From positions 1-64,000 of the IMG/VR virus record IMGVR_UViG_3300013383_000027: DNA of 64,000 nucleotides; one strand, 5' to 3'. Each line of letters starts with the position of its first letter. Position 1 is the first letter of the stretch. Positions 1,678 through 28,687 of this stretch are shown here, piece after piece. The DNA comes from a virus. Lineage: Duplodnaviria > Caudoviricetes. The notes under the pieces are model-generated. The model made no database searches and was not told where the DNA came from. It worked only from the letters and a program-made list of their open reading frames with translations. The translations under genes and the position numbers were made by a program.

Positions 1678-2403
1678 TTATCGAAGCAATTTGTCGTATT
1701 TGCAAAATGGAATTGATGACACATTGGACGACGCCCAGCTAAACGAGTTGAAATGGTCGATGTAGAAGTCAGGAGAAAGTGACCATTTCCCATATCTGAG
1801 CGAACAACGCCTAAACTTGATTCTGTTTCCGACAAATCTCAGGTTCGAGTGCCAGTTCGGAGTCGTCTGCAGTAGTTCAACAACATCTTCACGTCTTCTA
1901 AGCGGAAATTCCCAAAAACCAGTTGGTGATGACGGCTCTGAGCCCATGAAATAGTTGTCCGGGAATATATTGTTGGCTTCATAGTGTCTCGTGACGCAGA
2001 ATCTTCCAGATGAAAGAAGTTCATCATCAAACGGCTTCACAGGAAATGTGTCGCAGTCTAGATATATTCCACCATACTCATTCATGAGTTCCATTCGAAC
2101 AATGTCGGAAAGGATTTGGATGAATCTCAGGTTCTTTCCATAAACATTCTTCTGTTTCCAGATATACTCTCCGTAAAAGTCGTTCCTTCCGAGAAGCGAG
2201 TCGATGCATCTGCGTATCTGGACGTCATATCTTGAATTAAAATCGAAATCTGCCGAACCAATTCTTTCGATTTCCCTAACTGAACGGAAAACCCTGACTA
2301 TCTCGAAATCAGGGTTCACCTCCTTGAAGTTTCCTATCGAGAACTCGACATAATCTGGCATCGAGTTCCCAAACCAGACGAAAAACAACCTCTTCGGAAT
2401 CAT
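1678..2403 (-). CDS. Glycosyltransferase, GT32/DXD sugar-binding family
   Basis: MIPKRLFFVWFG start and DIVRMELMNEYGGIYLDCD motif typical of GT32. Confidence 0.85.
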   Translation of the reverse strand: MIPKRLFFVWFGNSMPDYVEFSIGNFKEVNPDFEIVRVFRSVREIERIGSADFDFNSRYDVQIRRCIDSLLGRNDFYGEYIWKQKNVYGKNLRFIQILSDIVRMELMNEYGGIYLDCDTFPVKPFDDELLSSGRFCVTRHYEANNIFPDNYFMGSEPSSPTGFWEFPLRRREDVVELLQTTPNWHSNLRFVGNRIKFRRCSLRYGKWSLSPDFYIDHFNSFSWASSNVSSIPFCKYDKLLR

Positions 2404-3170
2404 TGCGCCTTTGAACGGAACTTCTCGTTGAGTTCCTTCAGAGGTTCTATCAGTTTTCCAAGCGGCGTATCGTGATATTCGTCAGAAAGGGCGTTCACGT
2501 CCTTCGGGAAGCACTTTCCTCCGTATCCGAAGCATCCGTCAGGACCTGGAACCTGCGTATGGGTCTTGTTTATGTAACCGGAAAGGAGGATTCCGTCCCT
2601 AACATTCCCGAAATCGAGACTATCGCGTTCGCATATGTCATTTATCGCGTTGAAATACGTGACCTTGAGCGCCCCGAAGACGTTATGTGCGTACTTTGCA
2701 AGCGAAGCCTCCATACTCGACATGCAAATGTGCTCCTTTCCGGGGAAAATCCGCTCAAGAAGCCCGATGTTGCCAGTAAAAACCATTTTCTGGCGACGAA
2801 AATCCTCAATATAAGTCCTTTCCGTGAGAAATTCCGGCATATGATGGACTTTTTCGTTGATTTCCTTCAGTTTTTTGAGATTTTTTGGAAGAGTCGTCGT
2901 CCGAATCCAGATGTCCTTGCCTTTTGGAATCATTCTTATGATGTCCTCAAGCACGCCGATGTCCTGCTTGCCGTTTTCAAGAGTTGGAACATGAATCTGA
3001 ATAAAAAATGCATCAATTTCCTCGTTTTCGTATACATTTTCATCATAACCCTTTGCCGGATCCGAAATGTGGAGGATGACATTCGGGTTGTTTTCCTCCA
3101 GCCAGACCTTTAGTGCCGTCCCGATGAAACCACATCCAACCAAACCAACATCAATTTTTTCTGATTTCAT
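2400..3170 (-). CDS. UDP-glucose/GDP-mannose dehydrogenase family protein (short form, C-terminal domain absent)
   Basis: VGLVGCGFIG Rossmann motif, PEFLTE, AKYAHNVFGALKVTYFN and GFGYGGKCFPKD catalytic motif. Confidence 0.9.
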   Translation of the reverse strand: MKSEKIDVGLVGCGFIGTALKVWLEENNPNVILHISDPAKGYDENVYENEEIDAFFIQIHVPTLENGKQDIGVLEDIIRMIPKGKDIWIRTTTLPKNLKKLKEINEKVHHMPEFLTERTYIEDFRRQKMVFTGNIGLLERIFPGKEHICMSSMEASLAKYAHNVFGALKVTYFNAINDICERDSLDFGNVRDGILLSGYINKTHTQVPGPDGCFGYGGKCFPKDVNALSDEYHDTPLGKLIEPLKELNEKFRSKAQ

Positions 3171-4080
3171 TGATAACCTCCAATATTTTGTCGTTTTCTG
3201 TAAGATTTAAACAGTTAATGTCATTTTTGCAGTCGTTGTAGCGGACCTGAAGCCCAATGTCGACATAGTTCAGGTCTATCATGACCTCCTTGTCATGAAG
3301 AAAACACTCCGTGACAAGCCTGGGGCTGCAGTCGAATCGCCTTTTAACCGGTGTATAAATGTACTTGTCGAACTTGTCGAAAAGATTCTCAACCGGAGCC
3401 TCCACCTGCTCTATGTCGTCAAGGTTATCATATTCGGGAAGAAGCTTCGGAACGATGAGAATGCTCCTGCTGCACCCCGAATTGCGGTGGTATTCCTGTA
3501 TGACCTCCGGAGTCACCTTTCTACACGCAAACGTAACATAAAACATTCCCGTGTTGTCATATGTCCTGTTTGGCTTCCTGTAGTACACAAACGGAAGCTT
3601 TTTCACATAATCGAATGTCCTGTAGTAATTATTCGGCTTATAGATTCGGTAGTCCTTCAAGTACACCATGTTCCTGTAGATCGGGGACCTTGTGTTGATT
3701 GCCTCGTCCTTCTCTCCGCACATGAATCCTATCAGGTGTTTTGACATCAAGAGAATGCCATACAATTCAAGCTGGTGGATATTCCCGTCACAGAGCAATA
3801 CGACGGTATCCTTCCCGAACACATACACCTTCTCCCGCTTGAACTCATCAGGTGTTATGTAGGTTATGTCATCTACTATATCATCAAACGATATGTTGTA
3901 TTTCGACTCGAATGCAACCCTTATCTTTTCCCTGCTCATTCCCCCGAAGAAGATTATTCCAGCCTTCATGTAATTCCTAAGGAACAGGTAATAGTCAAAA
4001 CACTCGAACAGATGTCCGGTTATCTCGTCGATTGGAGAATATGTCAGAATTATGTCGTATGACGACTCTATCTTTCGCAT
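3151..4080 (-). CDS. Hypothetical protein (309 aa), possibly a glycosyltransferase-like fold
   Basis: Long ORF overlapping both neighbours in the operon. No diagnostic motif recognised. Confidence 0.6.
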   Translation of the reverse strand: MRKIESSYDIILTYSPIDEITGHLFECFDYYLFLRNYMKAGIIFFGGMSREKIRVAFESKYNISFDDIVDDITYITPDEFKREKVYVFGKDTVVLLCDGNIHQLELYGILLMSKHLIGFMCGEKDEAINTRSPIYRNMVYLKDYRIYKPNNYYRTFDYVKKLPFVYYRKPNRTYDNTGMFYVTFACRKVTPEVIQEYHRNSGCSRSILIVPKLLPEYDNLDDIEQVEAPVENLFDKFDKYIYTPVKRRFDCSPRLVTECFLHDKEVMIDLNYVDIGLQVRYNDCKNDINCLNLTENDKILEVINEIRKN

Positions 4081-4991
4081 CAGATTATCGAGTTCCTGTT
4101 GTTCCTATTGCAGTATTCTACGACTCTCATGTTGCAATAGCGGCAGCATTCGCATTTTCCGGAAAGTATGTCGTCGTAATTTCCGTCCCAACCCGTCAGG
4201 TTGTTTTCCTCCATGTGGACATAGCATGGATAGATATCACCAAACGCGTCAATCTGCAAGGAATAATCTTTTATGCTTTGACAATAAATATCTGTCTTCC
4301 CCATTTTTCTGTAGAAATCAACCAGGGAATTTATTTTTTTGTATGTATCATATATATCTTTTGGCGGAAGAAAATCTAAATACTCAAAATTGTTTTTGTA
4401 ATCATCTTGTGGAGATGGATAACAAGTGTCAAGGTATTCAATCTTATGAAATCCAACTAACATGTTTTTAAATTTGTTTGATTTTATATCATCGTTATTG
4501 TATGAAAACCTAATGCATTTCGCACAATCTATATTTCTTATTCTACGTATGCATGATGCATGTCTAAGAATACGTTCTAGATTCGTATTTACCCTGTAAT
4601 GTTCGTGATTTTTCTGGTTGCTTCCACACAATGTAAACCAGATCTCGTCATTATCATCCATTAAATCGCCAAGTCTATTCCAATATTCATCCTCATGCAA
4701 ATCTCCATTCGTGCATATTTTTATCTTTAAACCACGTTTCTTTATCTCATTTACGATCTCATGAAATTCTGGGTGAGTTGTCGGCTCAGATAATTGACCA
4801 ATCAAATAAACTGTCTTCAAATTTGGAAAAGAAAAAATCTGTTTCAGGACTTTTTCTCCGTTTCTATAGAACGGTTTCTTGTATTTTTCACTGAAAGATA
4901 TTTTGTTTCTATAGCAAAGCGGACATTTCGCATTGCATATTGTCGTCAAATCGAGCTCCACCAACTGTACTTCATTGTATTTCAAATGCAT
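4080..4991 (-). CDS. Radical SAM protein with SPASM/twitch-type C-terminus
   Basis: CNAKCPLC (CxxxCxxC), IGQLSEPTTHP, TNG, C-terminal CQS...IDAFGDIYPC...CECCRYC. Confidence 0.9.
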   Translation of the reverse strand: MHLKYNEVQLVELDLTTICNAKCPLCYRNKISFSEKYKKPFYRNGEKVLKQIFSFPNLKTVYLIGQLSEPTTHPEFHEIVNEIKKRGLKIKICTNGDLHEDEYWNRLGDLMDDNDEIWFTLCGSNQKNHEHYRVNTNLERILRHASCIRRIRNIDCAKCIRFSYNNDDIKSNKFKNMLVGFHKIEYLDTCYPSPQDDYKNNFEYLDFLPPKDIYDTYKKINSLVDFYRKMGKTDIYCQSIKDYSLQIDAFGDIYPCYVHMEENNLTGWDGNYDDILSGKCECCRYCNMRVVEYCNRNNRNSII

Positions 4992-5599
4992 TGTACCCTC
5001 TCAAAATCTTTATCGTGTATCATACGTTTTATTGATTCTTTTGTCATTCTATCTGAAAATTTCGATATGATTTCATGTTTCCTTTTTTCAGACAATATCG
5101 GTCCTGTCTGTTCATGGAAGAAAGATGATGGAATCAAATCAAACAAAATATCCCTGTTTATTTCAAGAAAATTTCCAAGACGGCATATATTGTCATCTGT
5201 GACAACAATGACATATCTAACATTATACTCGTCGTGTTTTTCAATTTGTTCTTTTTCAAACAAATCTTGCGAGCAATGATATAATATCTCAAAAGTTTTT
5301 TCACACAATCTAGGATACTTGAAAAACATCCCGTTCGTTTCTATGTATATTTTACATTCCTTTTCTTGCAAGTTCTTAAAATATTCTTCAAGTATATCTT
5401 CCTGTACAAGTCCTGGTTCTCCACCAAATATGGTAACGTTTGATTTTTCTGGAATTGTTTTTAATCTTGAAATTATATTTTCTGCATCACAATTGGCATT
5501 CATGTCCACTTTATTTCTTACTGCACAATAAGGACAATTCCAATTGCATTTTGTTGTTATCAAGATTGAATAATCATTTTCTACATTAAGAATTGGCAT
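4982..5599 (-). CDS. Radical SAM protein (short, 205 aa)
   Basis: CNWNCPYC, FGGEPGL, IETNG. Confidence 0.9.
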   Translation of the reverse strand: MPILNVENDYSILITTKCNWNCPYCAVRNKVDMNANCDAENIISRLKTIPEKSNVTIFGGEPGLVQEDILEEYFKNLQEKECKIYIETNGMFFKYPRLCEKTFEILYHCSQDLFEKEQIEKHDEYNVRYVIVVTDDNICRLGNFLEINRDILFDLIPSSFFHEQTGPILSEKRKHEIISKFSDRMTKESIKRMIHDKDFERVQCI

Positions 5600-6374
5600 T
5601 TAAAAATCTCTTTGAATTTTTTAAGTCTAACATGAAGTCAGAAATGGTCTTGTGTTTATCCTCCAGATAAAAATCAGAAAGATGCAACTTTATGTTTGTT
5701 TCGCTCATTCTGTCTTTTCTTTCTTTGTAGCGTTCTATCTTTCTGCATAGACCAATATCGTGAAAATGAAAACATTTTATTTTATTTGTTTGTATACATT
5801 TGCCACATATTTCTGGTTTTGATTCATAACATCCGGGAAGATAATTCGTCTCTTTTACTAGATTTGGATTAAAAACCAACATTTTTTGTTTCTTTCCAAA
5901 TCTATCATATTTTTTATCTATATCATTGTAGTATTTCCATTCATCTATATAAAAAGTATCAACTATATTGTGCATCAATCTACCATCATATTTTGGAAAA
6001 ACATATGAAATCAAATTTAGGAATTCTGGTGTTATTGTCGCGATGTTTTCATTCTTCATTTCTCTTAAAATCAGTTCTGGTTCATCTATAAACAAACATT
6101 CGTCCATGTCTGAAACTATAACAAAATCCGTTTTACCAACAACATTTTTCCAACACATGTTTTTTATTCTCAAGAGTTCCATGTCATCGAGAATACCATT
6201 TGTTTTCCACACCTTGACAGTAACGAAAGGTATTTTTTTGAGAAATTCATATGAACCATCGTTTGATTCGTTGTCATAAACCGTAACATGCGCATTCATA
6301 TGCTTCCAATAATCGACAACAAACGGAAGTATTTGGATTTCATTATAGCAAAACGTGAACCATTCAACGATCAT
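5586..6374 (-). CDS. Glycosyltransferase (GT2/GT92-like)
   Basis: TFCYNEIQILPF, VYDNESNDGS and FVIVSDMDE (DXD) motifs. Confidence 0.8.
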   Translation of the reverse strand: MIVEWFTFCYNEIQILPFVVDYWKHMNAHVTVYDNESNDGSYEFLKKIPFVTVKVWKTNGILDDMELLRIKNMCWKNVVGKTDFVIVSDMDECLFIDEPELILREMKNENIATITPEFLNLISYVFPKYDGRLMHNIVDTFYIDEWKYYNDIDKKYDRFGKKQKMLVFNPNLVKETNYLPGCYESKPEICGKCIQTNKIKCFHFHDIGLCRKIERYKERKDRMSETNIKLHLSDFYLEDKHKTISDFMLDLKNSKRFLNANS

Positions 6375-7257
6375 GAATTTCTCCGTTTCCTATTGTTACC
6401 CCGAAATTTCCATGTCTACAAAATGGACATTTGCAGACAACAGTTGTGTATTTTTCAACATCAAATCCATCTTTTATGTTATATAAGGGTTTGTCTCCAT
6501 AGTAAAATTCATTTTGACATGGATATACATTCCCATTTACGTGAATATACAATGTATCAACACCGGCGGTACATTCATTTCCGGAATAATCATCCATATA
6601 CACAGCCGAAAAATCATCAAAGATAGATTTATATATGTCCTTGTGCCCAATATGCTTTTTTACGTCAACAAAACCATTTTTAATGAGAATTGAAGAAAAA
6701 TTACGAATATCATCATCTGAATATTGAAATACACCACTTGGTTTATATAAAAGCCACGGAACAATAACGTTTTTATACTTTTCTTTCAAAGTATAAATTA
6801 CATTTCCCCATCTATCTGAATTTCCAAACTCATACATCATGGCTATTTCAATTATGTTGGCTTGGTTTATTCCAGTTAGACCGTTCAAGAATGATACGAA
6901 TGTTGTGTCGTTTGTTTCAGTGTGCCACGATACTGAAAACTTCACATTTTTTGAAAGCAATTCAGCATAATCACATCTAGCGACAGAAAGATTTGTATAC
7001 ATATCCACACTACATACATTTTTTATATTGAATGATCTTGTTACAAGTTCTGAAACCTTTGGATGTAGTGATGGTTCTCCACCTATTAAAGACAATTTTA
7101 TATTTCGTCCGGTTTTCTCTGAAATTTGCGCAAGGAAATTCAAGAGAATGTCAATATCAATAAAATTCCCACTTCTTGGCTGTCTGTTGTAGCAATACGA
7201 ACATTTAAAATTACACGCGTCAGAAATATAAACAAGAATTGTTAACTCAGTATTCAA
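6364..7257 (-). CDS. Radical SAM/twitch protein, paralog of 8320-9279
   Basis: CNFKCSYC, IGGEPSLHP, CTAGVDTLYIHVNGNVYPC...CKCPFC. Confidence 0.9.
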   Translation of the reverse strand: MNTELTILVYISDACNFKCSYCYNRQPRSGNFIDIDILLNFLAQISEKTGRNIKLSLIGGEPSLHPKVSELVTRSFNIKNVCSVDMYTNLSVARCDYAELLSKNVKFSVSWHTETNDTTFVSFLNGLTGINQANIIEIAMMYEFGNSDRWGNVIYTLKEKYKNVIVPWLLYKPSGVFQYSDDDIRNFSSILIKNGFVDVKKHIGHKDIYKSIFDDFSAVYMDDYSGNECTAGVDTLYIHVNGNVYPCQNEFYYGDKPLYNIKDGFDVEKYTTVVCKCPFCRHGNFGVTIGNGEIHDR

Positions 7258-8323
7258 TATATTCGTCCTCTCTTATGAGATCAAGTGTCGAACAATGTAT
7301 ACCGCCAGCAAATATCTCACCATTATCCAATTCAACCTCAATGATATCGAATCCATTCTGTTCAAGTGCCTTTTTAACACCATATGCTTTTTTGTTCACA
7401 AGTACGGTATGCTCATCCAGACTTAAAACATTTATATCCATTCCACGACTTGATGCAAGACGTATATCAATATCTGTCATTCCTCTAACATCAAGTTGTT
7501 CTGTTAGATCCTCTGGGATAATGAAGTTCCATTTTTTGAATTTTTCTGGCAACATGTCTCTTACACAAGCGAATTTAGGATTCAACAGGAATGTCCCAGG
7601 TTTAAGACACACAAGTTCACCATCAATATGCGAATCTGCGCATTTGACAACGTGGAATTTCGATTCTGGGAACAACGACTTGACCCATTTGTATCCAAGA
7701 TATTGATTTTGTGTGGCTACATTTACAATAACATCCTTTCCTATTGTCAAAAAATTTGGAGCATCAATCGACATCTCATATCTCGCATTCGCGTTCGTGA
7801 AATCTCTGTCTTCCTTCCAGTCGACCAAATCGTACGTTTCCTTAATCAAATGGGTGTTCGGAGCCTTTATCCACTTACCGCCATTCCCGTTATCAAACGC
7901 CCTCTGGAATATTCTGTACATCTGCAGGTTCTCAAAAACCCTGTTCCTCAGACATATCGGTGTCTCCACAATCGTGTCGTTGTAGACCAGTGTGAGATCC
8001 CTGACATTGTTGGCCGAACTCATCTCGGTGTCATATGTCGGGGTCTTTATCTTGTGAACTCCAATTACCCTGTCCGGCCGGAAAACGGTTACACCAAGAC
8101 TTTCAAGGACACCTGCAAGCGCGTCAAGCTGTTCCACCCTTCTCTGCAATATATTCTCGGTTATTGAATACAACTCATGTCGGCTGTTGTAGAGTCCCTC
8201 GGGGAGAAGGTTCTCCCTGAAGAAATTCCTGAACGTAAAATCGATCAGACGACGGCTTATTTCAAGCTCACGCCCGACAATAACCTCCCGCAACTTCCCA
8301 AAAGTCGTATTACAGTGAATCAT
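7247..8323 (-). CDS. Amidinotransferase (glycine / inosamine-phosphate amidinotransferase family)
   Basis: FGKLREVIVGR, NVRDLTLVYNDTIVETP, DAPNFLTIGKD, SHIDGELV, C-terminal GGIHCSTLDL with the catalytic Cys. Confidence 0.9.
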   Translation of the reverse strand: MIHCNTTFGKLREVIVGRELEISRRLIDFTFRNFFRENLLPEGLYNSRHELYSITENILQRRVEQLDALAGVLESLGVTVFRPDRVIGVHKIKTPTYDTEMSSANNVRDLTLVYNDTIVETPICLRNRVFENLQMYRIFQRAFDNGNGGKWIKAPNTHLIKETYDLVDWKEDRDFTNANARYEMSIDAPNFLTIGKDVIVNVATQNQYLGYKWVKSLFPESKFHVVKCADSHIDGELVCLKPGTFLLNPKFACVRDMLPEKFKKWNFIIPEDLTEQLDVRGMTDIDIRLASSRGMDINVLSLDEHTVLVNKKAYGVKKALEQNGFDIIEVELDNGEIFAGGIHCSTLDLIREDEYIEY

Positions 8324-9279
8324 TTCTTCACACCCTTCAGTATCTTCTCCTTGCGGACGTCGAAGTCACACGAGCAGTAATCAACAGAACATATGCACGG
8401 CTTGAACAGTTCCCTCCTGTACTCTCCATTCGTCTCCATAAGGTTGCAAATTGGCTTCCTTCTATGCTCATAATAACTCTGGCAATTGTATACGTTTCCA
8501 TCGGCATGCACATACACGTAGTCAAGCCCAGCATTACACTTCCAAAGATGGAAATTGACAAGGGGGTTAAGGTACATGTCATTGAAAGAAACCTGCTTCT
8601 CCGTTCCATCACTGTACCTCAGAGTGAAGAAATCCCTGACATACTTGAGTTCTCTCGTGAACCTGTGGTAGAGATCGAGCTGTTCCTGCGTATAGTTATA
8701 CGGCTGTCCATTCTTATCCGTGAGCAGGCTTATCTCAATCCATTTCTTGTAGCGCGGAACGAGAAGCTCATATGTCCTTACCGAGTTCTTCCAGTTGTCC
8801 TTCTCAAACATTATGCGGACTTCGATCAAATCCTTCTCGAAATACATCATCGGTATCGCAAGCATCTTCGAGATGTATTTGTTGTTCGCCGGATCGCACT
8901 TCGTTCCGTGCCACGACGCGGCAATCTTGATGTTCCGCACAAGAAGCCATTTCGCATATTCGAGGTCAAACGTGAAATTTGTTATTATCTCAACCTATAT
9001 ATCGTCGAGGGTGTTTAAGTGTTCAAGGAATCTTTTCAAATCCGGGTGGAGTGTCGGCTCACCTCCTATAAGCGAAACGTTGAGCCTTCTGCCCGTTTTC
9101 CGTTTCATGTCTTCGACAAACCTAAACATAAGTTCGAGATTGGCAAGACCACTTGTTCTCGGAAAGAAGTTATAGCAGTATGGGCAACTGAAGTTGCACC
9201 TGTCTGCGACAAACAACAAAACGTTTATCACAGACACGTCCTGCTTGACGTATTGTTCAATCGGGTATATGTCGTTCAT
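8320..9279 (-). CDS. Radical SAM/twitch protein; 1 in-frame TAG at 8995
   Basis: Track ORFs 8995-9279 (CNFSCPYC, IGGEPTLHP) and 8320-8940 (CNAGLDYVYVHADGNVYNC) join in frame through LDDI*VEIITNF. The joined gene is colinear with paralog 6364-7257. Confidence 0.9.
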
Positions 9280-10115
9280 TTAATCCTTTTGAAAAATTTC
9301 AAACGCTCTGCGACCGGATCGTACTCGTCCGGAAACTCGCCATTCCTGTATATGTGCTCATGTAGAAACGAAATCGTATCAACCTCGTCATCTGCATACA
9401 GGTCGACGGAAGGATACCCCTCGCCGAACTGGTAGTTCTGGACTGGGCGCATGTGAAACTCGCCGTTGAGGAACATTGTGTCGATTACATATTCCTCCAG
9501 CGAGTACCACCCACTCTCCTTGTAGAGTCTCTTCCACCCGTCGCTTTCAAGTATCGACTTGTCCATGCAAAGCGAAAAATATCGTTCATAGAATCCGTTG
9601 TTGAGCCCCGATACGATGAAATTCGTGTCAAACGGAAGATGCCCGTTTAGGGTGGTCCTCTGTCCTTTTGCGGATCTCTCGTCGTACTGTCCGATTACGA
9701 TTTCGTCGTCAAACGGGAGGAGTGACGCGTCAAGTGGTCTCAAAACCTGCATGTCAAGATCAATCTTTATCGAAACCCTGTTCCTCATCTCCGGAAATTG
9801 GCTGAAATAATATCCACAGAGCGGTTCATTGAGAAACCCAATCTTGAAGTCATCGGCACATTCTTGTGGGTCATCAATGTACCTGACTCCAAGATTGCTC
9901 AGCCTTGAAACCGTTTCAGCCTTTACAAACGTCTTGTTGAGGTGTACACAGCAGATGTCAATGTCTTTTAGGATTCCTGCGTTTTTCCGCCACGAACCAA
10001 AACAACGTACAGCCTCCTCCTCGAAAAACCGCGAAACGCTCTTCCCGCCAACAGTTACTTTCTTGTTGGCGTCTATCGGGGAAATAAGCACGAAATCTTC
10101 TGGTTTCAATTCCAT
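9276..10115 (-). CDS. Putative glycosyltransferase-like protein (GT-A, DXD)
   Basis: IKIDLDM DXD-like motif and FDTNFIV segment, plus operon context. Confidence 0.55.
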   Translation of the reverse strand: MELKPEDFVLISPIDANKKVTVGGKSVSRFFEEEAVRCFGSWRKNAGILKDIDICCVHLNKTFVKAETVSRLSNLGVRYIDDPQECADDFKIGFLNEPLCGYYFSQFPEMRNRVSIKIDLDMQVLRPLDASLLPFDDEIVIGQYDERSAKGQRTTLNGHLPFDTNFIVSGLNNGFYERYFSLCMDKSILESDGWKRLYKESGWYSLEEYVIDTMFLNGEFHMRPVQNYQFGEGYPSVDLYADDEVDTISFLHEHIYRNGEFPDEYDPVAERLKFFKRIK

Positions 10116-10762
10116 ACCGGCAGGAGGCTGATATCCGGATATTCGTCATAACAGATCTCCCTGAATGGTGGAAGCAGTTCGTCCTGGTTCAGTTTGCATA
10201 TTCCAAGAGCGGCTCGCTCAGGCTCCATGTAGCAGTGGTATCCCATGATAATGTCCTTTTTTGTCATGACAGATTCCTTGATGAACGGAATCCTAGGGTT
10301 CCTGCCGTCGTGGCGCATCCTCCTGAGGAGTTCGAGATATCTCTCGCTATTGAATAGAATGGCTCCTCCGCGTCCAAGCGAAAGCCTCTTCTTCTGCTGA
10401 AATGAAACACACACAAGGAAATCCTCGCAGATGAAGTCGTTTAACATCATGTTCTCGTTGAAACCAACAGCGGCATCAAAAACACCGGTTCCCTTGCCAA
10501 CCTCATACGAGATGTGCCATTCAACAAGCTCAAATGATATGTTCCACCCGTTGTTCTTCAGGGTCATCGGAACGCTGAGATACGTGTTCTTTGGAATCAC
10601 AAGCGGCTCATCCTTGTTTATCTCACCGAGTCGTCTCTTAGCCTCAAGTGAAAGAAGAATTGCATTTGTGCAACAGTCAACGCATACTGCATATTCGAAC
10701 TGCGTATACCTCACCAACTTCCTTTCGAATTCCTCAACTAGATCAAAATTGTTGTCAAACAC
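10106..10762 (-). CDS. DegT/DnrJ/EryC1/StrS-family PLP aminotransferase (short form)
   Basis: AVCVDCCTNAILLSL, TYLSVP, VFDAA, SFQQKKRLSLGRGGAI (PLP lysine motif), RHDGR. Probable start is GTG at 10762 after GAGAGGGGG. The track's TTG at 10930 would overlap the epimerase by 175 nt. Confidence 0.85.
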   Translation of the reverse strand: MFDNNFDLVEEFERKLVRYTQFEYAVCVDCCTNAILLSLEAKRRLGEINKDEPLVIPKNTYLSVPMTLKNNGWNISFELVEWHISYEVGKGTGVFDAAVGFNENMMLNDFICEDFLVCVSFQQKKRLSLGRGGAILFNSERYLELLRRMRHDGRNPRIPFIKESVMTKKDIIMGYHCYMEPERAALGICKLNQDELLPPFREICYDEYPDISLLPVWN

Positions 10763-11681
10763 CGACAAACCCCCTCTCAAGTTCGGAAACCCATTTTCCG
10801 ACAAGTTTCTTGACGTGGATGGCGGAATCGCGATCCGGCCGATATATACACCTTGTCCAGACGAAACAATCTTGATTTCGCTCAACGATTTTGACACGTT
10901 CTCCCGTAATCTTCTCAACCTCTTTTCCAATCAATGTGGCAAGAACACACATTGACACGCTTCCGTTTCTGTCAACGATATTTGCTGTCTTGTCATGTGT
11001 ACATAGAATCTCGTCGACCCCCCTCTTGCTCGCATAGTCTATGTCGGTCATCGTGCGGAGCGTGTCCTTCGAATACCATATGCTCTTCTCGACAAACGCA
11101 TCCCTGAACATCTCGAACACGACGCCACGTTTCTGCCCGGCACCAGAAATGTTGAACGGTCTTAATATCTTAAGATGGGAAATCGCCCCAAAATTACGAA
11201 GCGTAGAAAACATCGTCTCATCAGCAAGCTTCTCGATTGCGTACAGGGTGCGAGGGTTCTTTGTGTCTATTGTCAGGTCAACCGTTTTGGCATTGCAGCG
11301 CCCTTCACAATTCCCGTACACTTCAGATGAGGAGTAATATGTAAAGTCTACGGGCTTCTTCCCCGCATAGAAACGTTTCGTAAGAGCTTGCGCCACGTTG
11401 AACGAAATCAAGTGGTTCCGCTCCGCATGTACAATCGGGGATGCCTGATTTCCCTTATCGGCATCGAAGAGTTTCCTGCCAACATTGGCCGCAAGAAGAA
11501 CAACATTCGTATATCTTCCGATTATCTTTGACAGCGAATCGATATTGTTATTGTCCGTCAGGTCGAGATCGAAAATGTCAATCGACCTGTATGCAACATT
11601 GCGTCTCTTCAGCTCGCGACAAAGACCCGAACCGATAAAACCATGACCCCCAATGAGAAGAACGCGTGTTTTCTTTTCCAT
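10755..11681 (-). CDS. NAD-dependent epimerase/dehydratase (extended SDR)
   Basis: GGHGFIGS, YSSSEVYG, YAIEK (YxxxK), LRPFNISG. Confidence 0.9.
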   Translation of the reverse strand: MEKKTRVLLIGGHGFIGSGLCRELKRRNVAYRSIDIFDLDLTDNNNIDSLSKIIGRYTNVVLLAANVGRKLFDADKGNQASPIVHAERNHLISFNVAQALTKRFYAGKKPVDFTYYSSSEVYGNCEGRCNAKTVDLTIDTKNPRTLYAIEKLADETMFSTLRNFGAISHLKILRPFNISGAGQKRGVVFEMFRDAFVEKSIWYSKDTLRTMTDIDYASKRGVDEILCTHDKTANIVDRNGSVSMCVLATLIGKEVEKITGERVKIVERNQDCFVWTRCIYRPDRDSAIHVKKLVGKWVSELERGFVGV

Positions 11682-11712
11682 ACTCCATAGTATACCGTTT
11701 TCGAGAAAAAAA

Positions 11713-12801
11713 TCAAGGTCTTTTTGGATATTTTCTCAAATACAAAAGTTCTGTCTCATTACCGATAAATTCCATTGGGTTCTTGACTATTTTTCCGGGT
11801 TCTGGAACGGCATATTTCAGAATTGAATGATCACACGTCTTCTCTACACCATCACATATGAGATAGTATCGGCATCTCAAACATTCCTCACCTTTCTCAT
11901 AGAACTGGTTTCTCGTCCTTGTGACACTTTCAAGTGACCTGCTGCCATACGGTCCGAACGTCTTTGGATCGGTTCCCGAGTCTACGAGATCAAGAAGCGT
12001 CGTCCCGTCCAGCTCCCTGTTCCAGTCGAACCAGTCGTACATATGCTGGAGATGTCCAACAATGTGTCGTTCATATCCCTTCATGTCACAAAACGGAAAA
12101 TACCTTATGTAGACAAGGCAATTCGGAAGCTTTTCCCGTATTACACCGATATTCCTCTTCAATATGGGGCGAAGCTTTCCATAATCTATATACCGTGACA
12201 TTTCTCCAGCCTGTTCAAACGTATTAACCGGGAGGAAGTTGATGACGGACGGCCCGAACTTCACAAGATCGTCAACTATCAGATCAAGACCGCCCATGTT
12301 GAATGTCGCAACAACGGTGTTGAACCTCAGCAACTTTCCGTGTGTTTTGGCTTTCTCGACCGTCTTATTCACCTTGTCAAATGTATCGCCAAGCGGAAAC
12401 ATCGCCCTGTCCATGTTCATGTCCCTGCGACTTATGTGATAGCTGATTAAAACCTCGTCTATTATATCCCACACATCACTCCTCCACAACCCGCCATTGG
12501 TTATCACGGCTATCCTGGAAGACATGTTCCGTGATTTTATGTATTCGCAGACGTGGCGGAGCTCTTGATATTCAGAAGGTTCCCCTCCTGTTATCTCAAA
12601 ATCCCGTATTCCGTAGCCAAGACAGAAATCGATTTGTTTTCTGATGTAGTCGAGTGGAAACATCTTTTCATTGCATCTGTTCACATAGTAGCAGAATCCG
12701 CACTTCTGGTGGCATTGGAACCCGACGTATATCTGCGAACGCCTTGGCTGCACAAATCCCGGAGTGTTTTTCCTTATTACTCCTTCAAGGTTGATGTTCA
12801 C
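11713..12801 (-). CDS. Radical SAM protein
   Basis: CHQKCGFC, ITGGEPS, ITNG, C-terminal CLRCRYYLICDG. Confidence 0.9.
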   Translation of the reverse strand: MNINLEGVIRKNTPGFVQPRRSQIYVGFQCHQKCGFCYYVNRCNEKMFPLDYIRKQIDFCLGYGIRDFEITGGEPSEYQELRHVCEYIKSRNMSSRIAVITNGGLWRSDVWDIIDEVLISYHISRRDMNMDRAMFPLGDTFDKVNKTVEKAKTHGKLLRFNTVVATFNMGGLDLIVDDLVKFGPSVINFLPVNTFEQAGEMSRYIDYGKLRPILKRNIGVIREKLPNCLVYIRYFPFCDMKGYERHIVGHLQHMYDWFDWNRELDGTTLLDLVDSGTDPKTFGPYGSRSLESVTRTRNQFYEKGEECLRCRYYLICDGVEKTCDHSILKYAVPEPGKIVKNPMEFIGNETELLYLRKYPKRP

Positions 12802-13430
12802 TTCAAAAGATCCTCAATTTCAATTCGTCTCGAATTCCTTCCGGCAAAGATATACCTGAACCCAAACTCCTTCAGTATTCTGTCTGAAATGAAGAAGTCA
12901 TATGCATACGGATATACGAAAATGTCGGTATCAAACCCAAGTTCACCAAGCCTCCCGACACCCGCAGAAACATCCTTCCGGAAATCACCAGCAATATCGA
13001 TTTTCCCCTTTCCGAGGCTCTCGTCCAATTCAAGGTTCAGGTGCGTCCCTCCGTGGAACGCAAGAAACACGTTTTCACCTTTAAGAAGTTCTTTGACCTC
13101 CTGAACGCTCATGAACCCATTCAAAGCCGTCATGTCTCCCGAATGTATGCGGTCGTGAAGTTCCGAAGAAACAGAAACGAAGTCTGGGCTGCACGAATGG
13201 TCGCGGACGAGAAACGAGGACAACCCAAGCACAACGCCGATTCCACGGCTCAGAAGTTTCTTGCCGTGTTCCTTAAGAAACAAATATTGCGAATATAGGC
13301 AATCGTCCAAGAAGAGAAGGTCGCCGTTATTGAGGCGACCCATCGGGTTTCCCACCGTGTGTGGTTGGTGCATGACGACCCTCCGTCCGGATGACTTCAG
13401 AACCAAACGGAAATCCTTCTTTCCCGTCAT
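12798..13430 (-). CDS. Polysaccharide deacetylase-like (NodB-fold) protein
   Basis: LFLDDCLYSQ, AFHGGTHLNL and FVYPY resemble NodB metal-binding motifs. Confidence 0.6.
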   Translation of the reverse strand: MTGKKDFRLVLKSSGRRVVMHQPHTVGNPMGRLNNGDLLFLDDCLYSQYLFLKEHGKKLLSRGIGVVLGLSSFLVRDHSCSPDFVSVSSELHDRIHSGDMTALNGFMSVQEVKELLKGENVFLAFHGGTHLNLELDESLGKGKIDIAGDFRKDVSAGVGRLGELGFDTDIFVYPYAYDFFISDRILKEFGFRYIFAGRNSRRIEIEDLLK

Positions 13431-14122
13431 GTCGTGAAGTCCTGTAGCTTCTTGAGGTATTCGTCCATTGCGAAATCAACCTCCTCGACCGTCTTTGACG
13501 CGAGAACTTTCTGACGTGTACCATCCATCAAATCGTATACGTACTTGACCCTTGCGATACGGTCATATGCGTTCAGATACTTCTCGAGCGTCGACAGGTT
13601 TTCCTTTGCTTCCGTATAATTTCGCATCATGGTCGCATGTTTCTGTTCCTGGTCGAACGTTGGGTTTTCTGGAAGTGGATCCGGCTCTGGGTTGTCCTGG
13701 GACTTTTCGATGATCTCGAAGTACTTGTCCTCGCGGTTGGAGTCGGTGATGAAATATCCTGCATTCAGGAGTTTTATGTAATTGTTCATGTATTCCATGA
13801 CGTCGATAACGGACACGCCGATTATCATCTGCTGCATAGCAGTTGAGATGTCGTTAACAGCAACCCGAATTCTCGTCGTCAATTCATCAGATTGGATTTC
13901 GATTATGTCGGAAAGTTGAGCCTCCGGAAACTGCATCATCTTCGGAAAGCCGACGGCAACACCCTTCGCAAGAAGTTCCTTGACCTTCGCTATCGTCAGA
14001 AGGCTCGCTTTCAGAACCTTCGAGCCTGGTTCGGGGTTCATTGCATTCGAATACGACGTTCCGACGACCCTCCAGTGGTCGCCGTCGTCCCTCACGAGAA
14101 GCGTCTCATAGTCCATTTTCAA
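13427..14122 (-). CDS. Hypothetical protein (231 aa), helical, directly downstream of the Cys-rich protein
   Basis: Clean ORF with an ATGA overlap to the next gene. No family recognised. Confidence 0.7.
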   Translation of the reverse strand: MKMDYETLLVRDDGDHWRVVGTSYSNAMNPEPGSKVLKASLLTIAKVKELLAKGVAVGFPKMMQFPEAQLSDIIEIQSDELTTRIRVAVNDISTAMQQMIIGVSVIDVMEYMNNYIKLLNAGYFITDSNREDKYFEIIEKSQDNPEPDPLPENPTFDQEQKHATMMRNYTEAKENLSTLEKYLNAYDRIARVKYVYDLMDGTRQKVLASKTVEEVDFAMDEYLKKLQDFTT

Positions 14123-14140
14123 TTCCTCCGTTTTGAAAAG

Positions 14141-14707
14141 TCAGTAGTTGTTGCAGTATCCGTAGCAGTTGCACTTGTAGTATGCTGTGCAATCGGAGTA
14201 GCATATGCAGTCGCCCATCGCGAGCGAAACCTCTGTCTGCATGTTCGCAATCGACTCTGCAAGGGTCTTGTTTCCCTTGTTGAAATCCGATGTCTCATCG
14301 TCAATGCGGTGCATCTCGTTGACAATCTCCTCAAGTTTCGCAACCGGGTTTCCGACGACGACATCACCTTTTGCGGTAGGGTTCAAGTCACCATTCGATC
14401 TAAGTTTCGTCTCCCTCTCCATGTTCCCGTTGAAGCTGTCGGAAAGCGGCCACCTGTGGAGATTCCTACGAGCAATCTCCTGCTCGATTGCTGACTTGAG
14501 GGTGTTTATGTTTCCAGTCTCTATTATCTCGTTATCAACCGGCTTGTCGAAATCGTATGAATCAACCCCCTTGTCCCTGTGACCTGTGCAGAACCCGTAC
14601 TGGACCTTTCTCCCCTTGCTCGGCCAGCCGTCCGTGTCCGTCGAACAAACGCCGTTCTTCGGAAAACCAATCTTTGACTTGCCTCTTTCTGGATTACACC
14701 GTGCCAT
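14141..14707 (-). CDS. Protein with Cys-rich C-terminus (CxC-x3-C-x5-CxC-x3-C); candidate radical SAM substrate
   Basis: Ends GDCICYSDCTAYYKCNCYGYCNNY-TGA and lies 12 nt downstream of a SPASM radical SAM gene. Confidence 0.75.
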   Translation of the reverse strand: MARCNPERGKSKIGFPKNGVCSTDTDGWPSKGRKVQYGFCTGHRDKGVDSYDFDKPVDNEIIETGNINTLKSAIEQEIARRNLHRWPLSDSFNGNMERETKLRSNGDLNPTAKGDVVVGNPVAKLEEIVNEMHRIDDETSDFNKGNKTLAESIANMQTEVSLAMGDCICYSDCTAYYKCNCYGYCNNY

Positions 14708-14719
14708 TCGAAAACTCCT

Positions 14720-15814
14720 TCAGCTTATAAAATATTTACGGTTGGACAGGGCAAGAAAAAGAGCCTTCGTCACCTTTCCGAAGTGCTTCATGAACCTGCA
14801 TTTTGAGAGATCCTTTCCGACTGCCGTGTTCCACCTGTCCATCCCGTCATTCCTCCCAAGACATTTCACATGACAAGTGACGCAGTATGCCGCACCACAG
14901 CCAATACAACCATCAATCGGTCCTGACGAGTCGAGTTGGTTGTTCTCGTACACCTTCACGAGGTCATCGACATCTTCTATCGTGCCAAGAACGAACCTTT
15001 CGTTGTTTTCAGCATACGGTCCACCATGACAGCAGTATATCATGCCGTCAGTGTGGAGGTGTAGGTTGTTGTCCATCCTGCATCTTGCTCGTCCATCCCT
15101 CTGGAACCACCCCATCAAAAACCTTCCATGTTCCATGTAGAAGCGACATTCCCTCTTCGCAAGTTCAAATGTAGCCTTTTTCCACTCGTCAAACATTGAG
15201 TCATCACTCATTGTTGTGTCGAGTGTCGGAACATACTGTACGAAATCACCAAACTCTTCATACAATTTCCTATAGGATTCCCACATTTCCGGAAGTTTGG
15301 GAATCATGTCATACGTCAGCGTAGGCTTGAAGTTTATCTCGATGCCGTTCTCAAGAAGGAGCCTGGCGGTCTCGAATATGAGCGAACTGTTGTCTCCGCG
15401 CTTCTCCGTGTGCTGCGGTTCGCCGTCGTATGAGAGCTGTATGTGAAGACGACCGCCCTTCAGGCTGTCGATATAGTCCGAATTCACAAGCCTCCTGAAG
15501 TTCTCGACGAGCGTTCCGTTCGTGTAGCAATGGTAATTGACGAAATCATACTTGTAAGTTTCCCTGATGAGATGGTCGAGAAACTGGAAATTCAGGAATG
15601 GTTCTCCTCCCCAGAAGGTAAGTTCAAGGGAATGCAGCTTTTCCGGATTCCAGTTCTCGCAGAGATTCCTGATGACACGGATTTCATCGCCCTCATTCCT
15701 CGGATTCTTCACACAGATCTTGTCAAGACCCTCCATGCAGTACGAGCAGTGGCAGTTGCATCCGTCCGTAACCGTCACTTCAAGTGAAATTGACTGTTTC
15801 CTGTCAAATTTCAC
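14720..15814 (-). CDS. Radical SAM/SPASM peptide-maturase-like enzyme
   Basis: CNCHCSYC, FWGGEPFL, YTNGT, QLSYDG, SPASM Cys set RCRMD...YCCHG...CIGCGAAYCVTCHVKC...KC. Confidence 0.9.
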   Translation of the reverse strand: MKFDRKQSISLEVTVTDGCNCHCSYCMEGLDKICVKNPRNEGDEIRVIRNLCENWNPEKLHSLELTFWGGEPFLNFQFLDHLIRETYKYDFVNYHCYTNGTLVENFRRLVNSDYIDSLKGGRLHIQLSYDGEPQHTEKRGDNSSLIFETARLLLENGIEINFKPTLTYDMIPKLPEMWESYRKLYEEFGDFVQYVPTLDTTMSDDSMFDEWKKATFELAKRECRFYMEHGRFLMGWFQRDGRARCRMDNNLHLHTDGMIYCCHGGPYAENNERFVLGTIEDVDDLVKVYENNQLDSSGPIDGCIGCGAAYCVTCHVKCLGRNDGMDRWNTAVGKDLSKCRFMKHFGKVTKALFLALSNRKYFIS

Positions 15815-16020
15815 TTGTTTTCCTCATTTTCCGATATTTTCTTTGTCATGTCCAACATTTCAGAAACCTCATCTTCGTTGACATTGAACATCTTAAGTAG
15901 CCCATCTGCAAGTTCAAGAAGGACATTACTTGTCTTCGGCTGTATTTCGAGAAGATTTGAACTCGCTTCGCGAAGATGAAGCACTGCACTTACAACATTG
16001 ATGTTGTCATTAGTATTCAT
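15811..16020 (-). CDS. Small hypothetical protein (69 aa), first gene of the radical SAM operon
   Basis: ATG lies 7 nt after a sigma70 -10 box. GTGA overlap with the SPASM gene. Confidence 0.7.
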   Translation of the reverse strand: MNTNDNINVVSAVLHLREASSNLLEIQPKTSNVLLELADGLLKMFNVNEDEVSEMLDMTKKISENEENK

Positions 16021-16027
16021 AACAATA

Positions 16028-16056
16028 ATTTTAGATTTTTCTTACAAAAAAGTCAA
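16028..16056 (-). promoter_or_regulatory. Sigma70-type promoter TTGACT-N17-TAAAAT driving the radical SAM/sugar operon
   Basis: Minus strand reads TTGACT TTTTTGTAAGAAAAATC TAAAAT TATTGTT ATG. Confidence 0.8.
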
Positions 16057-16068: not shown

Positions 16069-16093
16069 AAAAACCCGAGCCATGGGGCTCGGG
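16069..16093 (-). terminator. Intrinsic terminator ending the upstream late operon
   Basis: Minus strand reads CCCGAGCC ccat GGCTCGGG TTTTT. Confidence 0.85.
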
Positions 16094-17137: not shown

Positions 17138-17150
17138 TGTCTTCTCTTCC

Positions 17151-17157
17151 TATTTAC
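17151..17157 (-). promoter_or_regulatory. GTAAATA late-promoter motif overlapping the upstream TAA stop
   Basis: AAACCGTAAATAGGAAG, 13 nt before the ATG of 16352-17137. Confidence 0.6.
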
Positions 17158-19004: not shown

Positions 19005-19005
19005 T

Positions 19006-25000: not shown

Positions 25001-25146
25001 TTGTCGGTCATCTTCTAAAAAGCGTTATTTATCGAGGTGTAGATTATTTGGTTAGCCTTGAGGGATATGCCGGAACCGTCCCTGTTTGGAAGGGTTGTCT
25101 TCCTGTCTATTCCAAGCCTTACATTCTTTACCTTCAAGTTGTTCAT
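19006..25146 (-). CDS. Giant virion protein (~2046 aa) with beta-propeller repeats and a Listeria-Bacteroides-type repeat; 3 in-frame TAG
   Basis: The frame is open from ATG 25146 (ATGA overlap) to TGA 19006 except for TAG at 25015, 21439 and 20809. More than 10 repeats of the YIGTxxGLY type, and FTKDGYLFKGWTT near the C-terminus. Confidence 0.8.
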
Positions 25147-28620: not shown

Positions 28621-28626
28621 CCCCCT

Positions 28627-28633: not shown

Positions 28634-28687
28634 GGTTTTGAGTAGGTGGCAATACATGGTCGAGGATGTTCAAAACGTCTTCTGGAA

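What the first reader, a model, noticed from the sequence alone, without database searches (positions are those of the whole stretch)
13427..16056. Radical SAM/SPASM maturase paired with a Cys-rich-tailed protein: candidate phage RiPP-like protein-modification system
Seen: the operon opens with a 69-aa protein, a SPASM radical SAM enzyme, a 188-aa protein ending CICYSDCTAYYKCNCYGYCNNY (two CxCxxxC units) and a 231-aa protein, next to the tail fibre genes. Established: SPASM enzymes install thioether or other crosslinks on Cys-rich peptides (sactipeptides, ranthipeptides), usually on short precursors. Inference: here the core is fused to a larger carrier whose middle (NINTLKSAIEQEIARR) looks like a fibre-type helix. 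The product could be a crosslinked or metal-binding virion tip, perhaps further tailored by the five other radical SAM enzymes and glycosyltransferases. I do not know of a characterised phage system with this layout, though similar clusters may exist unannotated.
Basis: partly seen in the sequence, partly recalled or inferred. Interest (0 to 1): 0.85.

Follow-up and report, generated by a model that had tools for sequence, protein, structure and literature searches.

The report
Radical-SAM module for cysteine-tailed fibre-like protein
A giant gut phage, many related phages and some predatory bacteria share a gene set in which an iron-sulfur "radical SAM" enzyme sits next to a protein ending in an almost invariant cysteine-rich tail, so the tail is probably chemically cross-linked, which I found in no paper.

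Summary
On the minus strand, a terminator and a promoter-like site are followed by a 69-aa helical protein, a 364-aa radical SAM enzyme, a 188-aa protein ending DCICYSDCTAYYKCNCYGYCNNY, and a 229/231-aa protein.

- **Enzyme:** it is a divergent SPASM type with seven invariant C-terminal Cys. Its best solved relative is CteB. It has no RRE domain.
- **Tail protein:** it founds an unannotated family of 89 clusters at 50% identity. Six Cys, one Asp (a C-x-x-D unit) and the final Tyr are invariant.
- **Linkage:** in 14 of 15 lineages the SPASM gene lies beside the tail gene.
- **Fibre link:** about 12 family representatives carry a self-cleaving Peptidase_S74 fibre chaperone straight after that Tyr. 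These are therefore trimeric, and their mature end equals the window protein's natural end.
- **Wider cluster:** six radical SAM enzymes plus sugar enzymes are shared with Halobacteriovorax, a predatory bacterium.

Best reading (about 0.5): the enzyme modifies the tail, probably with thioether links, as CrpC does to CrpA. The virion-tip role and the chemistry remain unproven. Earlier notes of this scan describe similar radical-SAM/Cys-tail pairings on other DNA. I found no paper describing this family.

The parts
16074..16093 (-). Terminator-like hairpin (8 pairs, 7 G-C, then a T run) that ends the preceding tail-fibre transcription unit
16028..16056 (-). Promoter-like site TTGACT-17-TAAAAT. 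It ends 7 nt before the ATG of the 69-aa gene, so the mRNA would be nearly leaderless. This is a consensus match only, and the host promoter type is unknown.
15811..16020 (-). 69-aa Cys-free protein with no family match; it looks helical from its sequence (not modelled here). It is a conserved helper: a 62-96-aa homolog sits directly upstream of the SPASM enzyme in phage and Bacteriovoracia loci. It is translationally coupled to the enzyme (GTGA overlap). It matches no RRE or PqqD family.
14720..15814 (-). 364-aa radical SAM enzyme with a divergent SPASM domain. The radical SAM cluster motif is C19-x3-C23-x2-C26. The auxiliary cysteines are C245-x11-G-x4-C262, C303-x2-C306-x4-C311-x2-C314 and C339. 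There is no N-terminal RRE.
14141..14707 (-). 188-aa Cys-tailed protein, the presumed substrate. Its N-domain has C21, a C40-x-G-H-R motif and a conserved helix (I67 N68 L70 I74 E77 R81). The model shows a helical core.
14144..14212 (-). The invariant C-terminal tail, residues 166-188 (DCICYSDCTAYYKCNCYGYCNNY). C167, C169, D172, C173, C179, C181 and Y188 are invariant and C185 is nearly so. C169-Y-S-D172 forms a C-x-x-D unit.
13427..14116 (-). 229-aa protein (231 aa if the TTG at 14122 is used) of unknown fold, with a G[YF]FIT..NRE.KY motif. It is the fourth conserved member of the core module, with homologs in most phage loci checked and in Halobacteriovorax; none is seen next to the tail gene in L020 or L040.
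12798..13430 (-). 210-aa protein of unknown function. It is conserved in the cluster, with a Halobacteriovorax counterpart at L038:11113-11703.
1678..12801 (-). The rest of the co-oriented cluster: five more radical SAM enzymes, an NDP-sugar epimerase, a DegT aminotransferase, an arginine-deiminase-fold protein, a UDP-glucose dehydrogenase-like protein and two glycosyltransferases. Ten of these genes have BLASTP counterparts in the Halobacteriovorax cluster.

Best explanation
The 69-aa protein, the SPASM radical SAM enzyme, the 188-aa Cys-tailed protein and the 229-aa protein form one conserved functional module.

The 188-aa protein is the dedicated protein substrate. The RRE-less SPASM enzyme, probably helped by the small helical protein, acts on the invariant 23-residue C-terminal tail. 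The most likely reaction is conversion of cysteine thiols into thioether (ranthionine-type) cross-links. The prime candidate is C169 to the side chain of the invariant D172, a C-x-x-D unit like the motif modified in CrpA.

The product would be a covalently stapled, reduction-proof C-terminal knob. Its free end right after the final Tyr matters. It would sit on an oligomeric, probably trimeric, fibre-like accessory protein. The other five radical SAM enzymes and the sugar enzymes of the cluster may decorate it further.

**Shown:** the gene anatomy, the SPASM-type cysteine pattern, the family-wide invariance of the tail, the conserved linkage, the S74 fusions and the sharing with predatory bacteria.

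**Inferred:** that the tail is the substrate, the thioether chemistry, the oligomeric state of the window protein, and any role on the virion.
For: **Linkage**
- The SPASM gene lies directly upstream of the tail gene in the window and in L002, L004, L006/12/13, L016, L017, L020, L021, L022, L024/25, L027 and L029. In L023 it is two genes away.
- Three tests that started from enzyme homologs (L039, L040/41, L042) all found a tail gene directly downstream. L039 and L040/41 also show the small helper upstream; L042 is cut off there.
- Six more Bacteriovoracia genomes show the same pair.

**Enzyme**
- It has seven invariant auxiliary Cys plus CxxxCxxC.
- The best solved relatives are the thioether-forming CteB (E 2e-19, aligned through the SPASM cysteines but not the RRE) and anSME.
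- The best NCBIfam alignment is full-length to PapB.

**Tail**
- Six Cys, D172 and the terminal Tyr are kept across 57-73 representatives that are otherwise 20-30% identical.
- The AF2 model leaves the tail disordered beside a helical core, as expected for an accessible peptide-like substrate.

**Precedent**
- CrpC installs thioethers on the C-terminal Cys repeats (C-X-X-Q/D) of the 29-kDa protein CrpA (PMC13692751).

**Fibre link**
- In about 12 of 89 representatives the Peptidase_S74 domain starts at the residue after the invariant Tyr.
- In T5 pb1 this domain cuts the bond before its Ser, and only in the trimer (PMC4690869).
- The phage and S74/Bacteriovoracia forms are homologous along their length (hhalign 99.3%, E 1e-20).
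Against: - No modification has been observed. Everything rests on gene context and homology.
- The window enzyme scores far below every curated family cut-off (PapB 44 bits against 340; TIGR04463 31 against 525). It misses Pfam SPASM, and its CX2CX4CX2C spacing is non-canonical.
- One lineage (L010/L011/L028) carries the tail gene with no radical SAM gene within -4.7/+5 kb.
- The cluster is rich in sugar enzymes, and some SPASM or twitch enzymes act on sugars (BtrN appears among the solved relatives).
- A CxC period-6 pattern in a trimer would also suit a metal-binding needle.
- The operon is a separate transcription unit and is TAG-poor compared with the structural genes, so late or virion expression is not established.
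Confidence: 0.5

Rival explanations
1. The tail is a metal-binding or Fe-S-binding module. In a trimer, the CxC pairs at a six-residue period would line the axis like the HxH iron sites of the T4 gp37 needle. Alternatively, the tail acts as a scaffold or electron carrier for the six radical SAM enzymes. In either case the adjacent SPASM enzyme works on another substrate, such as a sugar or nucleotide intermediate of the cluster or another protein.
For: - The tail follows a strict period-6 CxCxxx pattern, perfect four times over in the Bacteriovoracia/S74 forms.
- S74 fusions imply trimers.
- The cluster holds DegT, epimerase, UDP-glucose dehydrogenase, glycosyltransferases and a PIG-L deacetylase.
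- BtrN, a sugar-acting twitch enzyme, is among the solved relatives.
- The N-domain has its own conserved Cys and His residues.
Against: - The enzyme-tail adjacency survives when the sugar genes are not nearby (L040/41: radical SAM, helper, SPASM enzyme and tail gene only).
- The closest solved and curated relatives of the enzyme are Cys-thioether maturases and anSME, which act on peptides or proteins.
- The tail has no ferredoxin-type CxxCxxCxxxC motif and is rich in Tyr.
- The invariant Asp three residues after a Cys fits a known thioether acceptor motif.
- Metal binding and cross-linking are not mutually exclusive.
Confidence: 0.22
2. The system is a cofactor or RiPP-type pathway. The 188-aa protein is a long precursor whose C-terminal residues, including the terminal Tyr, are processed by the SPASM enzyme with its small partner, as in mycofactocin (MftA/B/C) or PQQ (PqqA/D/E). 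The product is then glycosylated and released as a small molecule.
For: - The final Tyr is invariant and is the last residue in 60 of 73 canonical members.
- A small partner gene sits directly upstream of a SPASM enzyme, the same order as pqqD-pqqE (from my own knowledge).
- Glycosyltransferases are present in the cluster. From my own knowledge, mycofactocin is glycosylated.
Against: - No peptidase that could release the tail was seen in the cluster.
- S74, where present, cuts after the tail, not before it.
- The N-domain is conserved as a folded unit with an invariant Glu and a near-invariant Arg, unlike a disposable leader.
- The small partner has no PqqD or RRE match.
- Mycofactocin and PQQ enzyme models are not among the enzyme's best matches.
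Confidence: 0.1
3. The pairing is only inherited synteny inside a large conserved cluster. The Cys tail forms ordinary disulfides or a zinc knot after release, with no enzyme-substrate relation.
For: - Most loci are related jumbo or megaphages that share the whole cluster order.
- One lineage lacks the adjacent enzyme.
Against: - Adjacency persists at 22-30% protein identity, across phages and bacteria, through changes in the surrounding genes, and in a minimal four-gene form.
- The phage relatives on record come from gut-type metagenomes. If those habitats are anoxic, as I assume, disulfides would be unreliable there.
Confidence: 0.1

Closest known systems
CrpC/CrpA(/CrpB) of Methanococcus voltae (Dieter et al. 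2026, PMC13692751; enzyme family TIGR04463)
   Same: A SPASM radical SAM enzyme with three [4Fe-4S] clusters is encoded beside a full-size protein (not a short peptide). That protein's C-terminal Cys-rich region carries C-x-x-D/Q units, and the enzyme gives it thioether links. A second small protein may help.
   Different: - CrpC has an N-terminal RRE; this enzyme has none, and a separate 69-aa helical partner is present instead.
- CrpA has ten 17-residue repeats; here there is one 23-residue tail ending at an invariant Tyr.
- The TIGR04463 score is 31 bits against a cut-off of 525, so this enzyme is not a member.
- Here the module lies in a cluster of six radical SAM enzymes plus sugar enzymes, in phages and predatory bacteria, and some members carry S74 fibre chaperones.
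Ranthipeptide maturases CteB/CteA (SCIFF, PDB 5WGG) and PapB/PapA (freyrasin, NF047865)
   Same: These are the best solved relative and the best curated relative. They are SPASM enzymes that link Cys sulfur to side-chain carbons, with Asp as the acceptor in PapA.
   Different: - Their substrates are short leader-core peptides recognised by an RRE, and the products are free peptides.
- Here the substrate is a 188-aa conserved protein and there is no RRE.
- Scores are far below the family cut-offs.
QhpD/QhpC (quinohemoprotein amine dehydrogenase maturation; TIGR03906)
   Same: A SPASM enzyme makes Cys-Asp and Cys-Glu thioethers in a protein subunit that stays part of a functional protein (from my own knowledge; the family appears among the weak matches).
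   Different: QhpC is a small enzyme subunit that carries a quinone cofactor. It has no homology to this tail protein and its context is different.
Phage fibres and spikes with the Peptidase_S74 intramolecular chaperone (K1F endosialidase, T5 pb1; PMC4690869), and the T4 gp37 HxH iron needle
   Same: About 12 family representatives carry S74 directly after the tail. Trimer-dependent cleavage before the Ser would leave the Cys tail as the mature C-terminal tip. The period-6 CxC pattern recalls metal-lined trimeric needles.
   Different: - The window protein has no S74 domain.
- Its predicted core is helical.
- I know of no described fibre that carries such a Cys tail or a dedicated radical SAM enzyme.

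Membership tests
Radical SAM superfamily (PF04055) | CxxxCxxC cluster motif and a core-domain match | tested here: met
   C19-x3-C23-x2-C26 is invariant. PF04055 scores 38.8 bits against a cut-off of 29.5.
SPASM subfamily (PF13186 / seven-Cys motif) | C-terminal CX9-15GX4C ... CX2CX5CX3C ... C motif that binds two auxiliary [4Fe-4S] clusters | tested here: inconclusive
   - Seven invariant Cys are present, including C245-x11-G-x4-C262.
- The middle unit is CX2CX4CX2C, shorter than the canonical spacing.
- The profile aligns onto the SPASM cysteines of CteB and anSME.
- PF13186 is hit by 3 of 38 relatives, not by the window protein.
- Cluster binding could not be tested.
RRE-dependent RiPP maturases (CteB, PapB and CrpC type) | N-terminal or partner RRE (PqqD-like) domain that binds a leader peptide | tested here: not met
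   The radical SAM motif starts at residue 19. The alignment to CteB covers residues 101-423 only. The 69-aa partner has no PqqD or RRE match in Pfam, NCBIfam or the PDB.
PapB family (NF047865) and CrpC family (TIGR04463) | Score above the curated equivalog cut-off | tested here: not met
   44.4 bits against 340, and 31 bits against 525.
Ranthipeptide/sactipeptide systems | Short precursor peptide with a disposable leader and a Cys-rich core | tested here: not met
   The presumed substrate is 188 aa (186-330 aa in relatives read in full here; 56-532 aa among the 89 representatives, some of them fragments). It has a conserved N-domain (C40-x-G-H-R, E77, R81) and a helical core.
Ranthipeptide/sactipeptide systems | Enzyme-installed Cys thioether cross-links | not testable with these tools
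   This needs mass spectrometry of the co-expressed protein. Only the C-x-x-D acceptor-like unit is seen.
Peptidase_S74 trimeric fibre proteins (PF13884) | C-terminal S74 domain with an S-x4-K dyad | tested here: not met
   It is absent from the window protein and from the whole 83-kb record. It is present in homologs P0038, P0070, P0071, P0079 and P0085, where it starts at the residue after the tail's Tyr.
Known anti-phage defence systems (PADLOC) | Match to a defence-system model | tested here: not met
   Only weak generic radical SAM similarity to pVip was found. There were no hits for the tail protein, the helper or the 229-aa protein.

The most novel reading that the evidence does not exclude
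TAG-recoded jumbo and megaphages and predatory Bacteriovoracia share a 15-25-gene pathway: six to eight radical SAM enzymes, an arginine-deiminase-fold enzyme and sugar-modifying enzymes. This pathway builds a multiply cross-linked, possibly glycosylated C-terminal tip on a trimeric fibre-like protein. Both kinds of attacker would use the tip to recognise or breach the envelope of their bacterial victims. That would be an enzymatically manufactured host-binding tip, a new principle in virion and predator biology.
Probability: 0.25. Interest if true: 0.9.

Novelty: new variant of a known kind. Interest (0 to 1): 0.74.

Why it matters
Radical SAM cross-linking of whole proteins has very few proven cases (QhpC, and CrpA in 2026), and I know of none in a virus. 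Here a well-defined, deeply conserved module points to such chemistry on a fibre-like protein.

- The module has four parts: a helper, an RRE-less SPASM enzyme, a 23-residue invariant Cys/Asp/Tyr tail and a fourth protein. It occurs in giant gut phages and in predatory bacteria.
- If confirmed, it would explain why large phages carry clusters of radical SAM genes.
- It would give a new way of recognising protein substrates without an RRE.
- It would show that host-binding or prey-binding appendages can be chemically manufactured, for example made stable where disulfides fail.
- The short invariant tail is also an attractive tag for enzymatic protein stapling.

Tried and rejected
- **Complex prediction:** Complex prediction on enzyme + 69-aa protein + 188-aa protein gave no answer (score 0.06). 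It is not evidence either way.
- **Tail-protein model:** the AF2 monomer has mean pLDDT 60, with four helices and a disordered tail. That is too weak to call the fold.
- **Phage GenBank collection:** no DNA or protein match.
- **IMG/VR:** only two related contigs.
- **Family libraries:** Pfam, NCBIfam, PHROGs and PADLOC gave nothing for the tail protein or the helper, and only weak PHROG hits (phrog_25260, E 4e-4) and a marginal NCBIfam hit for the 229-aa protein.
- **PDB profile searches:** no relatives for these three proteins.
- **Atlas:** only sub-threshold leads, one of them a CXXX-repeat radical SAM target family at 0.80.
- **Sequencing runs:** no RNA holder listed. Four DNA runs from one study hold the stretch, so there is no expression evidence.
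- **Tail-only alignment:** it was too degenerate for a genome scan.
- **L010 neighbours:** tested as hidden homologs of the enzyme or the 229-aa protein, and found not to be. The L010 record could not be searched whole.
- **Early-gene idea:** I considered 'TAG-free, so an early gene, so not structural'. The operon has 2 in-frame TAGs, and the relatives' tail and enzyme genes carry TAGs, so this argument is weak.
- **Literature:** searches found no description of this family.


Full report
**1. What is in the sequence**

The window is part of an 83-kb IMG/VR virus record that CheckV rates 32% complete. A relative lies on a 281-kb contig, so this is a jumbo phage.

Its structural genes read TAG as a sense codon, taken here as Gln. 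For example, 17154-19004 has 4 in-frame TAGs and 28860-34715 has 12. None of the 26 genes I checked ends in TAG.

On the minus strand the layout is:
- a strong terminator-like hairpin (16093-16074);
- a TTGACT-17-TAAAAT site (16056-16028) that ends 7 nt before an ATG;
- a 69-aa gene (16020-15811);
- a 364-aa gene whose GTG start overlaps the preceding TGA stop (15814-14720);
- a 188-aa gene (14707-14141);
- a 229-aa gene (ATG at 14116 with a GGAGG upstream; 231 aa if the TTG is used);
- fourteen more co-oriented genes down to 1678.

The upstream neighbours are tail-fibre-like: tail-fibre PHROGs for 16352-17191 and a BspA-type LRR protein at 17154-19004. They belong to another transcription unit.

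The 18-gene operon has 2 in-frame TAGs in about 4,970 codons. Eight upstream genes, mostly structural, have 22 in about 6,140 codons.

**2. The enzyme**

- It matches Radical_SAM and Fer4_12.
- In an alignment of 38 relatives at 32-43% identity, and in one that includes Bacteriovoracia orthologs at 27%, these cysteines are invariant: C19, C23, C26, C245, C262, C303, C306, C311, C314 and C339.
- This gives C-x11-G-x4-C, then C-x2-C-x4-C-x2-C, then a last C. That is the seven-Cys SPASM layout with a shortened middle unit.
- A profile of the family finds CteB (5WGG) at E 2e-19. The alignment covers CteB residues 101-423, so it runs through the SPASM cysteines and omits the RRE. anSME (4K37) follows at E 1e-14.
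- The best NCBIfam alignment is full-length to PapB, but at 44 bits against a cut-off of 340.
- Pfam SPASM is hit by 3 of 38 relatives and not by the window protein.

My conclusion: this is a divergent, RRE-less SPASM enzyme of the peptide or protein Cys-modifying branch. It is not a member of any curated family.

**3. The Cys-tailed protein**

It matches no Pfam, NCBIfam, PHROG, PADLOC or PDB family.

Close homologs (79-96% identical) and distant ones (about 30%) keep the tail letter for letter. A profile search of 1.84 billion representative proteins returned 89 clusters.

The tail consensus is [DE]-C-[IVL]-C-[YNH]-x-D-C-x5(-14)-C-x-C-[YH]-G-x-C-x(1-3)-Y.
- C167, C169, D172, C173, C179, C181 and Y188 are invariant, and C185 is nearly so.
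- 60 of 73 canonical members end exactly at the Tyr.

The pattern is a six-residue CxCxxx period. It is perfect four times over in one subfamily.

The N-domain is also conserved:
- C21;
- a C40-x-G-H-R motif;
- a helix with I67, N68, L70, I74, the invariant E77 and R81.

An AF2 monomer model is weak (pLDDT 60). It shows four helices and a disordered tail.

**4. The fibre link**

In about 12 representatives the tail is followed at once by SDxRLK and a Peptidase_S74 domain. Profile position 1 of S74 falls on the residue after the invariant Tyr in all five proteins tested.

In T5 pb1 this domain cuts the bond before its catalytic Ser, and only in the assembled trimer (PMC4690869). The S74 forms are therefore trimeric, and their mature end is ...C-x-C-N-Y. 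That is the same end the window protein has naturally.

The phage-type and S74/Bacteriovoracia-type proteins are homologous over the N-domain and the tail (hhalign 99.3%, E 1e-20, using non-overlapping alignments).

**5. Linkage**

Starting from tail-protein homologs:
- The SPASM gene is directly upstream in the window, L002, L004, L006/12/13, L016, L017, L020, L021, L022, L024/25, L027 and L029.
- In L023 it is two genes away.

Starting from enzyme homologs (L039, L040/41, L042):
- A tail gene is directly downstream in all three.
- The small helical gene is directly upstream in L039 and L040/41; L042 is cut off upstream of the enzyme.

In the Bacteriovoracia:
- Nine of 151 genomes sampled from the class of the Halobacteriovorax hit carry the tail gene.
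- The six new loci fetched from these genomes all have the enzyme next to it.

One lineage is the exception. L010/L011/L028 has the tail gene near the terminase gene, with no radical SAM gene within -4.7/+5 kb, and its neighbours are unrelated. The enzyme could lie elsewhere in that genome, but the record could not be searched.

L040/41 shows a minimal form with a radical SAM gene, the helper, the SPASM enzyme and the tail gene only.

The 69-aa helper and the 229-aa protein are conserved across phages and bacteria. Both have unknown folds.

**6. The wider cluster**

Twelve of the 18 operon genes have BLASTP counterparts in the Halobacteriovorax chromosomal cluster:
- the SPASM enzyme (30% identity);
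- the 229-aa and 210-aa proteins;
- all five other radical SAM enzymes, three with strong matches and two weaker;
- a 279-aa protein (39%);
- an arginine-deiminase-fold protein (55%);
- the epimerase and the 358-aa protein at 3151-4227.

The bacterial cluster also holds DegT, a PIG-L deacetylase, a UDP-glucose dehydrogenase, and a pilin-like protein with an S74 domain. The module is therefore part of a larger pathway that is not virion-specific.

**7. Mechanism**

The best-supported reading is that the tail is the substrate of the SPASM enzyme, and that Cys thiols become thioether links. The invariant C169-Y-S-D172 matches the C-X-X-Q/D units that CrpC cross-links in the 29-kDa protein CrpA (PMC13692751). 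It also resembles the Cys-Asp links made by PapB and QhpD (from my own knowledge).

The small helper may replace the missing RRE. The conserved N-domain may be the docking surface for several enzymes of the cluster.

The rivals are:
- a metal-lined trimeric needle, or an Fe-S scaffold, with the enzyme acting on another substrate;
- a cofactor-type pathway using the terminal Tyr, as in mycofactocin or PQQ;
- plain inherited synteny.

None can be excluded without mass spectrometry. Metal binding and stapling could also coexist.

**8. Novelty**

I found no paper on this family or on radical SAM modification of phage proteins. The kind of system, a SPASM enzyme with a Cys-rich protein substrate, has been known since 2026 in an archaeon. 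I therefore rate this a new variant of a known kind.

Earlier AI notes of this scan describe similar radical-SAM/Cys-tail pairings on other DNA. They are unchecked, and I did not use them as evidence.

- the definition of the DCICYSDC...CxCYGxCNxY family;
- the four-gene core module;
- the exact S74 junction after the invariant Tyr;
- the one lineage without an adjacent enzyme;
- the sharing of most of the pathway with predatory Bacteriovoracia.

Noticed in passing
window 16352-34715 (for example 17154-19004, 19006-25146, 28860-34715): The structural genes are open only if TAG is read as a sense codon (4, 3 and 12 in-frame TAGs). All 26 genes checked stop with TGA or TAA, never TAG. The radical SAM operon has only 2 in-frame TAGs, in 8320-9279 and 3151-4227.
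   Followed up: partly
L038:8487-10067 (-), Halobacteriovorax cluster: A 526-aa protein has a type IV pilin-like N-terminal methylation motif and a C-terminal Peptidase_S74 chaperone domain. It has no Cys tail and is encoded inside the bacterial multi-radical-SAM cluster.
   Followed up: partly
window 7247-8323 (-) versus L038:15851-16945 (-): The arginine-deiminase/amidinotransferase-fold protein is 55% identical between the phage and Halobacteriovorax (E 8e-144). It is by far the best-conserved gene of the shared cluster. It might act on a guanidino group of the protein product or of a sugar.
   Followed up: no
P0058, P0059, P0094 and L048 (tail region): Some homologs carry only a 10-12-residue SDxRLKxxIxY remnant after the tail. 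That is the first strand of an S74 domain without the rest. It could be a decayed chaperone or a site cut in trans.
   Followed up: no
L010:4728-5483, also L011 and L028: One TAG-recoded phage lineage has the Cys-tailed gene near the large terminase gene, flanked by unrelated 191-aa and 420-aa genes, with no radical SAM gene within about 5 kb.
   Followed up: partly
L021:4830-5440 (432-kb contig): A megaphage homolog has an extended tail with 12 cysteines (DCICYSDC... then several CxxxC units), next to a larger 413-aa SPASM enzyme.
   Followed up: no
L029:636-1958 (-): An IS605 OrfB / Cas12f-like TnpB gene lies just upstream of the cluster in a related TAG-recoded phage.
   Followed up: no
window 17643-18353 within 17154-19004 (-): The BspA-type LRR tail protein carries a weak thioredoxin-like match (PF13899, E 0.005) after the LRR repeats.
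   Followed up: no
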